Below, piece after piece: positions 57,188-57,229 of a DNA stretch of 64,000 bases; the stretch's first letter is position 1; each line of letters starts with the position of its first letter. The notes under the pieces are model-generated. The model was not told the DNA's origin. It saw only the letters and a program-made list of their open reading frames with translations, and ran no database searches. The position numbers were made by a program, and so were the translations under genes. This stretch comes from Gekko japonicus (lineage: Eukaryota), in assembly GCF_001447785.1 (NCBI RefSeq), contig NW_015168098.1, positions 126,789 to 190,788 on the forward strand. The letters run 5' to 3'.

Positions 57188-57229
57188 GGTATGAGCTTTC
57201 ATGAGTCACTGCTCACTTCTTCAGATACC
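57188..57229 (-). ncRNA. Minimal type-I hammerhead ribozyme within a short Penelope-derived repeat (57136-57229)
   Basis: Minus: GGTAT-CTGAAGA-A-GTGAG-cagtga-CTCAT-GAAA-GC-TC-ATACC; full core, paired stems I and II, palindromic AGCT in place of stem III. Confidence 0.75.

What the first reader, a model, noticed from the sequence alone, without database searches (positions are those of the whole stretch)
57188..57229. Apparently intact minimal hammerhead ribozyme, antisense, upstream of an OR coding exon
Seen: the minus strand reads GGUAU CUGAAGA A GUGAG cagUga CUCAU GAAA GC UC AUACC. Stem I is GGUAU/AUACC, the CUGANGA and GAAA cores are complete, stem II is 5 bp, and a UC cleavage site falls between 57193 and 57192. 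Stem III is reduced to the palindrome AGCU, and there is one extra A after the CUGANGA box. Known: Penelope-like elements and non-autonomous retrozymes carry minimal type-I hammerheads that are proposed to cleave as dimers through such palindromes. Inference: this ~95-bp non-coding unit is a ribozyme-bearing mini-retroelement and may still self-cleave. It would lie antisense in the inferred 5' intron of the OR at 60659.
Basis: partly seen in the sequence, partly recalled or inferred. Interest (0 to 1): 0.7.

Follow-up and report, generated by a model that had tools for sequence, protein, structure and literature searches.

The report
Penelope retrotransposon hammerhead, lone fossil copy
This is a real copy of the tiny self-cutting RNA motif that Penelope-type jumping genes carry in their end repeats, one of thousands in this genome; it sits alone and backwards near an olfactory receptor gene and is likely a silent leftover of an already described kind.

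Summary
The motif is present exactly as described and is not chance. It is the first 41 bases of a 95-base copy of the terminal repeat (pLTR) of a Penelope-like retrotransposon. Longer copies join the same unit to RT and GIY-YIG coding sequence upstream and, through a ~37-base tail, to the ORF start downstream. The 35-base core has 691 exact matches. Stems covary between sister families, so the fold was selected in active elements. Inserted copies decay neutrally: core 28/450 vs non-ribozyme 47/680 mismatches, p=0.71, and 3 of 93 are intact. This copy carries a CpG change that turns G10.1-C11.1 into G-U, has no partner copy, is predicted to misfold within its own unit, lies antisense to the OR, and its unique flanks had almost no RNA reads. 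The kind was described in 2014 (PMC4209133); the scan noted the same in other genomes. One side result: rare head-to-tail arrays mostly lack a pairable stem I (3/39 vs 46/84), possibly a footprint of dimer cleavage, but confounded.

The parts
57189..57228 (-). Minimal type I hammerhead of the family: 4-bp stem I, CUGAAGA, extra A, 5-bp stem II (G-U at 10.1-11.1 in this copy), GAAA, AGCU palindrome, UC cut triplet
57188..57229 (-).
57192..57193 (-). Predicted cleavage site (after C17); untested
   Evidence: hammerhead consensus
57134..57228 (-). Solo short pLTR unit (~95 nt) of a Penelope-like element: 5' edge at the first base of stem I, 3' end at the shorter (tail-less) of the family's two 3' ends
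57135..57146 (-). 3' end of the unit, predicted to pair with the 5' arm of stem II and to prevent the hammerhead fold
   Evidence: prediction
56648..57134 (-). 3' fragment of a LINE (RTE/BovB-like by recalled resemblance of its translation) that abuts the unit; other copies of this LINE continue past 57134, this one stops there
57716..58209 (.). Older sister-family hammerhead unit (core broken) with an inverted partial copy, split by a ~350-nt SINE-like insertion at 57730-58083; nearest same-strand relative
60659..61570 (+). Intact 303-aa olfactory receptor ORF (family recognised from sequence motifs, recalled); opposite strand to the hammerhead

Best explanation
The motif is the minimal hammerhead in the terminal repeat of an abundant Penelope-like retrotransposon family, and this lone 95-base copy is likely an inert insertion by-product that would not cut itself. 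Shown: the same unit follows the GIY-YIG 3' end and precedes the ORF start in longer copies; copies end at two 3' sites about 37 bases apart and pile up at a 5' edge at the first bases of stem I. Inferred mechanism: the element's RT starts inside the RNA at one of the two sites (as shown for the anole Poseidon element, PMC11167929), copies an uncut RNA across the cleavage site and stops at the start of the hammerhead, which is likely the RNA's 5' end. The short cDNA is then joined to the chromosome (solo copy, as here), folds back (inverted copy) or jumps template (rare tandems). In the parent element the ribozyme likely works only as a dimer or with the element's protein; after insertion it decays neutrally, and this copy is intact by youth or luck.
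For: 26 of 30 loci picked by the endonuclease stretch carry the unit downstream on the same strand (one being the query's own locus); Pfam GIY-YIG 30.4 bits (cut-off 22.6) and RVT_1 E 6e-06 (26.6 bits, under its 29.6 cut-off); UTR-hammerhead-tail-ORF start in L096 and tail-ORF-UTR-hammerhead in L091. Of 93 copies picked by a pattern outside the ribozyme: 40 inverted, 36 solo, 14 read-through, 3 direct; 3' ends bimodal (39 and 37); 35 5' ends within the first 9 bases around stem I (p=3e-12); RNA reads break at the same place. Neutral decay and 3/93 intact. Covariation score 0.364 vs 0.201 shuffled, 0/500, and <=0.127 slid. Stem probabilities <=0.04 in all five contexts longer than the bare motif; hammerhead fold 6 kcal/mol above the minimum. 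Monomers of min-HHRs did not cleave in vitro (PMC4209133).
Against: No cleavage assay was run. The bare 42-mer does fold both stems (0.83-0.97) and folding predictions ignore protein help, which rescued the anole ribozyme. That the 5' edge is the RNA's start is inferred: 31 of 93 ends fall inside the ribozyme, and fragmented unstranded RNA-seq showed no pile-up of molecule ends. RNA runs are of unknown tissue, one study for the raw reads, 3-12% read. Covariation reflects only about four sister families, not 65 events. No target-site duplication or empty site was found.
Confidence: 0.85

Rival explanations
1. The unit is a monomer of a non-autonomous retrozyme that spreads through its own tandem or circular RNA.
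For: Head-to-tail arrays of ~92-133-nt units exist, up to about 9 units; 12 RNA reads join the tail end back to the hammerhead start; one 99%-identical dimer keeps core and stem II with a 3-bp stem I (L316). The 2026 preprint derives retrozymes from pLTRs and counts solo monomers.
Against: Direct tandems are 3 of 93 copies; 0 of 84 units in 40 array loci are fully intact; the unit is colinear with the coding element and shares its two 3' ends; the RNA joint could come from a genomic array.
Confidence: 0.1
2. This copy is an active or co-opted ribozyme that trims an antisense RNA and so affects the neighbouring OR.
For: It is among the few intact copies (3 of 93 pass the same test) and lies 3.4 kb upstream of an intact OR with a likely 5' intron.
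Against: 691 copies match the 35-base core exactly, so intact copies are expected; G-U at 10.1-11.1; no partner; opposite strand; unique flank depth 0-0.37 and OR coding depth 0 in three raw-read runs; not shared with paralogous ORs.
Confidence: 0.04
3. Chance look-alike with no ribozyme ancestry.
For: No Rfam hammerhead hit; folding z-score only -1.27.
Against: Descriptor control; 7,711 core-spacing matches vs 1 for the reversed pattern; covariation; near-identical published turtle motif.
Confidence: 0.01

Closest known systems
Minimal hammerheads (min-HHR) of metazoan Penelope-like elements, esp. the Chrysemys picta bellii example (Cervera and De la Pena 2014, PMC4209133; parts 1-2 of 4 of the text and passages of supplement 2 read; supplement 1 not searchable)
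   Same: 4-bp stem I, CUGAAGA plus one extra A, 5-bp stem II, AGCU palindrome in place of helix III, located in the pLTR, mostly single dispersed copies.
   Different: Stem sequences and a 6-nt loop 2; cut triplet ends in C rather than U; this copy has G-U at 10.1-11.1.
PAc / Poseidon_Ac of Anolis carolinensis (Frangieh et al. 2024, PMC11167929; parts 1-2 of 4 read, supplements listed only)
   Same: Hammerhead at the pLTR-ORF junction; two 3' ends that define a 30-40-base tail; copies span the cut site, matching uncut RNA as template.
   Different: There the start codon lies inside the ribozyme; here it is about 140 bases downstream. This family has a CX4CxxC linker (Neptune/Nematis type), which that clade is described as lacking.
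Neptune clade of endonuclease-bearing PLEs (Craig et al. 2021, PMC8557442; passages read)
   Same: RT, CX2-5CxxC linker, C-terminal GIY-YIG, partial tandems, inverted 5' copies, tail.
   Different: No tree was built, so clade placement rests on the linker motif and on Neptune being a vertebrate clade.
Non-LTR retrozymes (Li, Clavereau and Pollet, bioRxiv 10.64898/2026.07.22.740005; parts 1 and 3 of 5 and passages read)
   Same: Short non-coding pLTR-derived unit with a type I hammerhead; arrays and monomers both occur.
   Different: Their definition needs two consecutive complete ribozymes; this copy is solo and the family's arrays are nearly all broken.

Membership tests
PLE minimal hammerhead (min-HHR) | Complete core CUGANGA / GAAA / UH | tested here: met
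PLE minimal hammerhead (min-HHR) | Short helix I (4-5 bp) and helix II | tested here: met
   4 bp in family, 5 in this copy; 5-bp helix II
PLE minimal hammerhead (min-HHR) | Unpaired base between 9 and 10.1 | tested here: met
   A57217; A in 41 of 45 copies
PLE minimal hammerhead (min-HHR) | Palindrome at 15.2-16.2 in place of helix III | tested here: met
   AGCU
PLE minimal hammerhead (min-HHR) | Conserved G10.1-C11.1 pair | tested here: inconclusive
   Met by the family majority (C in 27 of 45), decayed to G-U at a CpG in this copy; effect on rate not looked up successfully (listing only)
PLE minimal hammerhead (min-HHR) | Compensatory changes among families | tested here: met
   few independent events
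PLE minimal hammerhead (min-HHR) | Lies in the pLTR of a PLE | tested here: met
PLE minimal hammerhead (min-HHR) | Self-cleavage as dimer or with protein | not testable with these tools
   needs an in vitro assay
Endonuclease-bearing PLE, Neptune type (parent family) | RT followed by C-terminal GIY-YIG | tested here: met
   (RT just under Pfam's cut-off on a 122-aa piece)
Endonuclease-bearing PLE, Neptune type (parent family) | CX2-5CxxC linker between RT and EN | tested here: met
   CX4CxxC in L060 ORF 1839-2597; definition
Endonuclease-bearing PLE, Neptune type (parent family) | Partial tandems, inverted 5' copies, 30-40-base tail | tested here: met
Endonuclease-bearing PLE, Neptune type (parent family) | RT phylogeny within Neptune | not tested
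   no reference sequences held
Non-LTR retrozyme | Two or more consecutive units with complete hammerheads | tested here: not met
   this copy is solo; 0 of 84 fully intact in array loci, 3 of 84 with a 3-bp stem I
Non-LTR retrozyme | Circular RNA | tested here: inconclusive
   12 back-joined reads in one of three runs, equally explained by genomic arrays
Poseidon (PAc type) | Start codon inside the hammerhead | tested here: not met
   ATG about 140 bases downstream

The most novel reading that the evidence does not exclude
The family's genomic copies record dimer-dependent cleavage in vivo: head-to-tail arrays, the only arrangement that offers a partner, are almost free of a pairable stem I (majority pairable in 3 of 39 arrays vs 46/84, 28/42 and 16/21 non-array copies), as if multimer RNAs with working ribozymes are cut before they are copied or kept; and the solo 95/133-base units are strong-stop-like cDNAs running from the internal RT start to the RNA's 5' end at the hammerhead's first base.
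Probability: 0.2. Interest if true: 0.55.

Novelty: new member of a known kind. Interest (0 to 1): 0.18.

Why it matters
For this copy, little: it is one of an estimated 20,000-50,000 family copies (rough extrapolation) of a motif class described in 2014. The family-level pattern could matter: the role of PLE hammerheads in vivo is open (mutants did not affect insertion in vitro, PMC11167929), and a real depletion of intact ribozymes in tandem arrays would be a genome-scale, testable sign that they do cut as dimers.

Tried and rejected
Rfam scan: no hammerhead hit. Run search: no RNA holder listed, not used as evidence. Search of earlier notes near this place: nothing. An early idea that solo copies carry a fixed extra G or end in CCA came from loci picked by likeness to this copy; in the unbiased set the two bases before stem I vary, and only 4 of 14 end in G next to it besides others, so no fixed extension is claimed. 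Ends at the cut site are few (7 of 93 within 8 bases) and two of them are explained by stem I self-complementarity in inverted copies. No shared upstream position among paralogous ORs (a fragment at a similar distance from OR 37516 has unrelated flanks). No target-site duplication seen. The array signal is confounded: A-to-C at unit position 74, outside the ribozyme, is also raised in arrays (48/112 vs 25/135, p=4e-5) and is linked to the stem I changes in non-array copies (p=1e-5), so a subfamily, an error-prone copying step or short-read errors may explain it; it persists among units without that change (6/50 vs 63/93; by locus 6/22 vs 54/81, p=0.001); some arrays are related. Dropped before counts: duplicate overlapping loci (10 of 50 array loci), L001-L030 (picked by likeness), six 13/15/16-spaced motifs from alignment A1 (65 of 71). 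Searches for the array-depletion idea in print were limited to (listings); none showed it, but most subscription papers and Repbase/Dfam are not covered, and the preprint's supplements are closed.

Full report
Observation. My descriptor for a minimal type I hammerhead found this one site in the window; 100 shuffles gave a mean of 0.03 hits, and none with both stems of 5 pairs. Rfam found no hammerhead, which fits a motif without helix III (inference). Two details were missed. The pair at 10.1-11.1 is G-U, a CpG decay from the family's C and the only difference from the family majority inside the ribozyme. The fifth pair of stem I is a junction accident, since read-through copies have U there and 13 of 65 aligned copies pair at that column.

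The unit is a repeat. A DNA search of the own genome gave 1,371 candidates; 40 were scored and gave 41 near-full-length places at 94-100% identity plus 15 adjacent partial copies on the opposite strand. Exact patterns gave 691 matches for the 35-base core, 1,201 for the 35 bases after it and 7,711 for the core spacing across sister families against 1 for the reversed control. A rough extrapolation puts the family at 20,000-50,000 copies.

It is the end repeat of a Penelope-like element. Locus L009 continues upstream of the ribozyme into a GIY-YIG-like frame. Of 30 loci picked by that coding stretch, 26 carry the unit downstream on the same strand. Pfam gave GIY-YIG above its cut-off and RVT_1 at E 6e-06, just under its cut-off, on 2 of 6 pieces. 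The linker reads CX4CxxC, which PMC8557442 gives for Neptune and Nematis (passages). Downstream, the unit runs through a tail into an ATG about 140 bases after the hammerhead's first base; L096 holds UTR-hammerhead-tail-ORF start and L091 holds tail-ORF-UTR-hammerhead-tail. This is the partial-tandem pLTR layout.

Anatomy of copies. I took 93 distinct copies picked by the pattern that lies outside the ribozyme, from the first 90 loci of 1,201 matches. 40 have an inverted copy at the 5' side, 36 are solo, 14 read through into the UTR and 3 are direct tandems. 3' ends fall in two groups, 39 and 37 copies, about 37 bases apart, matching the tail that PMC11167929 ties to two internal RT start sites. 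35 5' ends lie within 9 bases around the start of stem I, 31 inside the ribozyme, 6 in the next 30 bases upstream (p=3e-12). RNA reads of the family also break off at the first bases of stem I. The window copy has the common 5' edge and the short 3' end. I infer that such units are short cDNAs from the internal start to the RNA's 5' end; a start site in the pLTR is reported for Penelope (cited) but is not shown here.

Selection. Across sister families stems covary: U-A to C-G in stem I, U-A to G-U or A-U and A-U to U-A in stem II; score 0.364 against 0.201 shuffled (0/500) and at most 0.127 when slid. These are about four families, so few events. Within the family, inserted copies mutate alike in the core (28/450, CpG left out) and outside it (47/680), p=0.71, and 3 of 93 pass the intactness test. 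The fold was selected in active elements, not in inserted copies.

Could this copy cut? The bare 42-mer forms both stems, but in five longer contexts their probabilities are at most 0.04; the unit's own 3' end pairs with the 5' arm of stem II and the hammerhead fold is 6 kcal/mol higher (predictions). Single min-HHRs did not cleave in PMC4209133 and the anole one needed protein. The nearest same-strand relative, 0.9 kb away, has a broken core. The motif is antisense to the OR. Three raw-read RNA runs and one contig set gave depth 0 on the OR coding bins, and the three raw-read runs gave 0-0.37 on the unique bin beside the unit; reads on the unit itself come from repeats. Tissues are unknown, so this does not exclude olfactory expression. 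A splice-acceptor-like tract precedes all four paralogous ORs, but the upstream exon was not located.

Retrozyme question. Head-to-tail junctions exist: 36 matches for the long unit, 26 for the short, and 12 RNA reads in one run. In 40 such loci 0 of 84 units were fully intact; the junction often replaces the first G. The 3' strand of stem I was pairable in most units in 3 of 39 arrays, against 46/84, 28/42 and 16/21 in three non-array sets. That is what dimer cleavage would predict. Against it, A-to-C at position 74 outside the ribozyme is also raised in arrays and linked to the stem I changes elsewhere; the deficit remains among units without that change; some arrays are related. The variant at the first base after the cut site is seen in independent RNA reads (about 60-65% carry A where L096 has C), so it is not only an assembly error. 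I leave this unresolved.

Comparison. The published turtle min-HHR has the same layout. Reptile min-HHRs and solo copies are stated in PMC4209133, and pLTR-derived retrozymes in the 2026 preprint. Twelve earlier scan notes in at least 8 genomes report like findings; they are not independent support. The host looks like a lizard from recalled repeat resemblance only. Verdict: real, ordinary, a new member of a known kind; interest 0.18.

Noticed in passing
L291:941-1500 (G000:C500:1036944-1037410): Five head-to-tail 109-base copies of a sister-family hammerhead unit with intact cores, preceded by an inverted partial copy: a retrozyme-like array.
   Followed up: partly
L316:1419-1603 (G000:C4592): A 99%-conserved head-to-tail dimer of this family with both cores and stem II intact and 3-bp stem I; the best natural substrate for a dimer assay.
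   Followed up: partly
window 1400-3020: 3' part of a different Penelope-like element: 338-aa open frame with RT end, cysteine linker and GIY-YIG-like domain (1494-2510), followed at about 2963-3020 by what looks like a decayed hammerhead lacking GAAA.
   Followed up: no
window 10595-10670, 32908-32989, 34051-34084, 50061-50131, 58083-58209: Further decayed units of this or sister families, all with the ribozyme strand opposite to the ORs where read.
   Followed up: partly
window 57134: The unit abuts a 5'-truncated LINE 3' fragment with a 1-2-base overlap and no target duplication; either a deletion at insertion or a template-switch chimera.
   Followed up: partly
family copies, unit positions 37, 39 and 74: Recurrent A-to-C changes, rare in long coding copies (3, 2 and 1 of about 40) and common in short and tandem copies; cause unexplained.
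   Followed up: partly
window 11593-61570: Cluster of six OR-like open frames on the + strand (283-322 aa).
   Followed up: no
window 15972-17114: 380-aa open frame of a CR1-like LINE reverse transcriptase (recalled resemblance).
   Followed up: no
window 58852-59270 and 61655-62065: Two ~420-base copies of one repeat in inverted orientation (89% identical) flank the OR at 60659.
   Followed up: no
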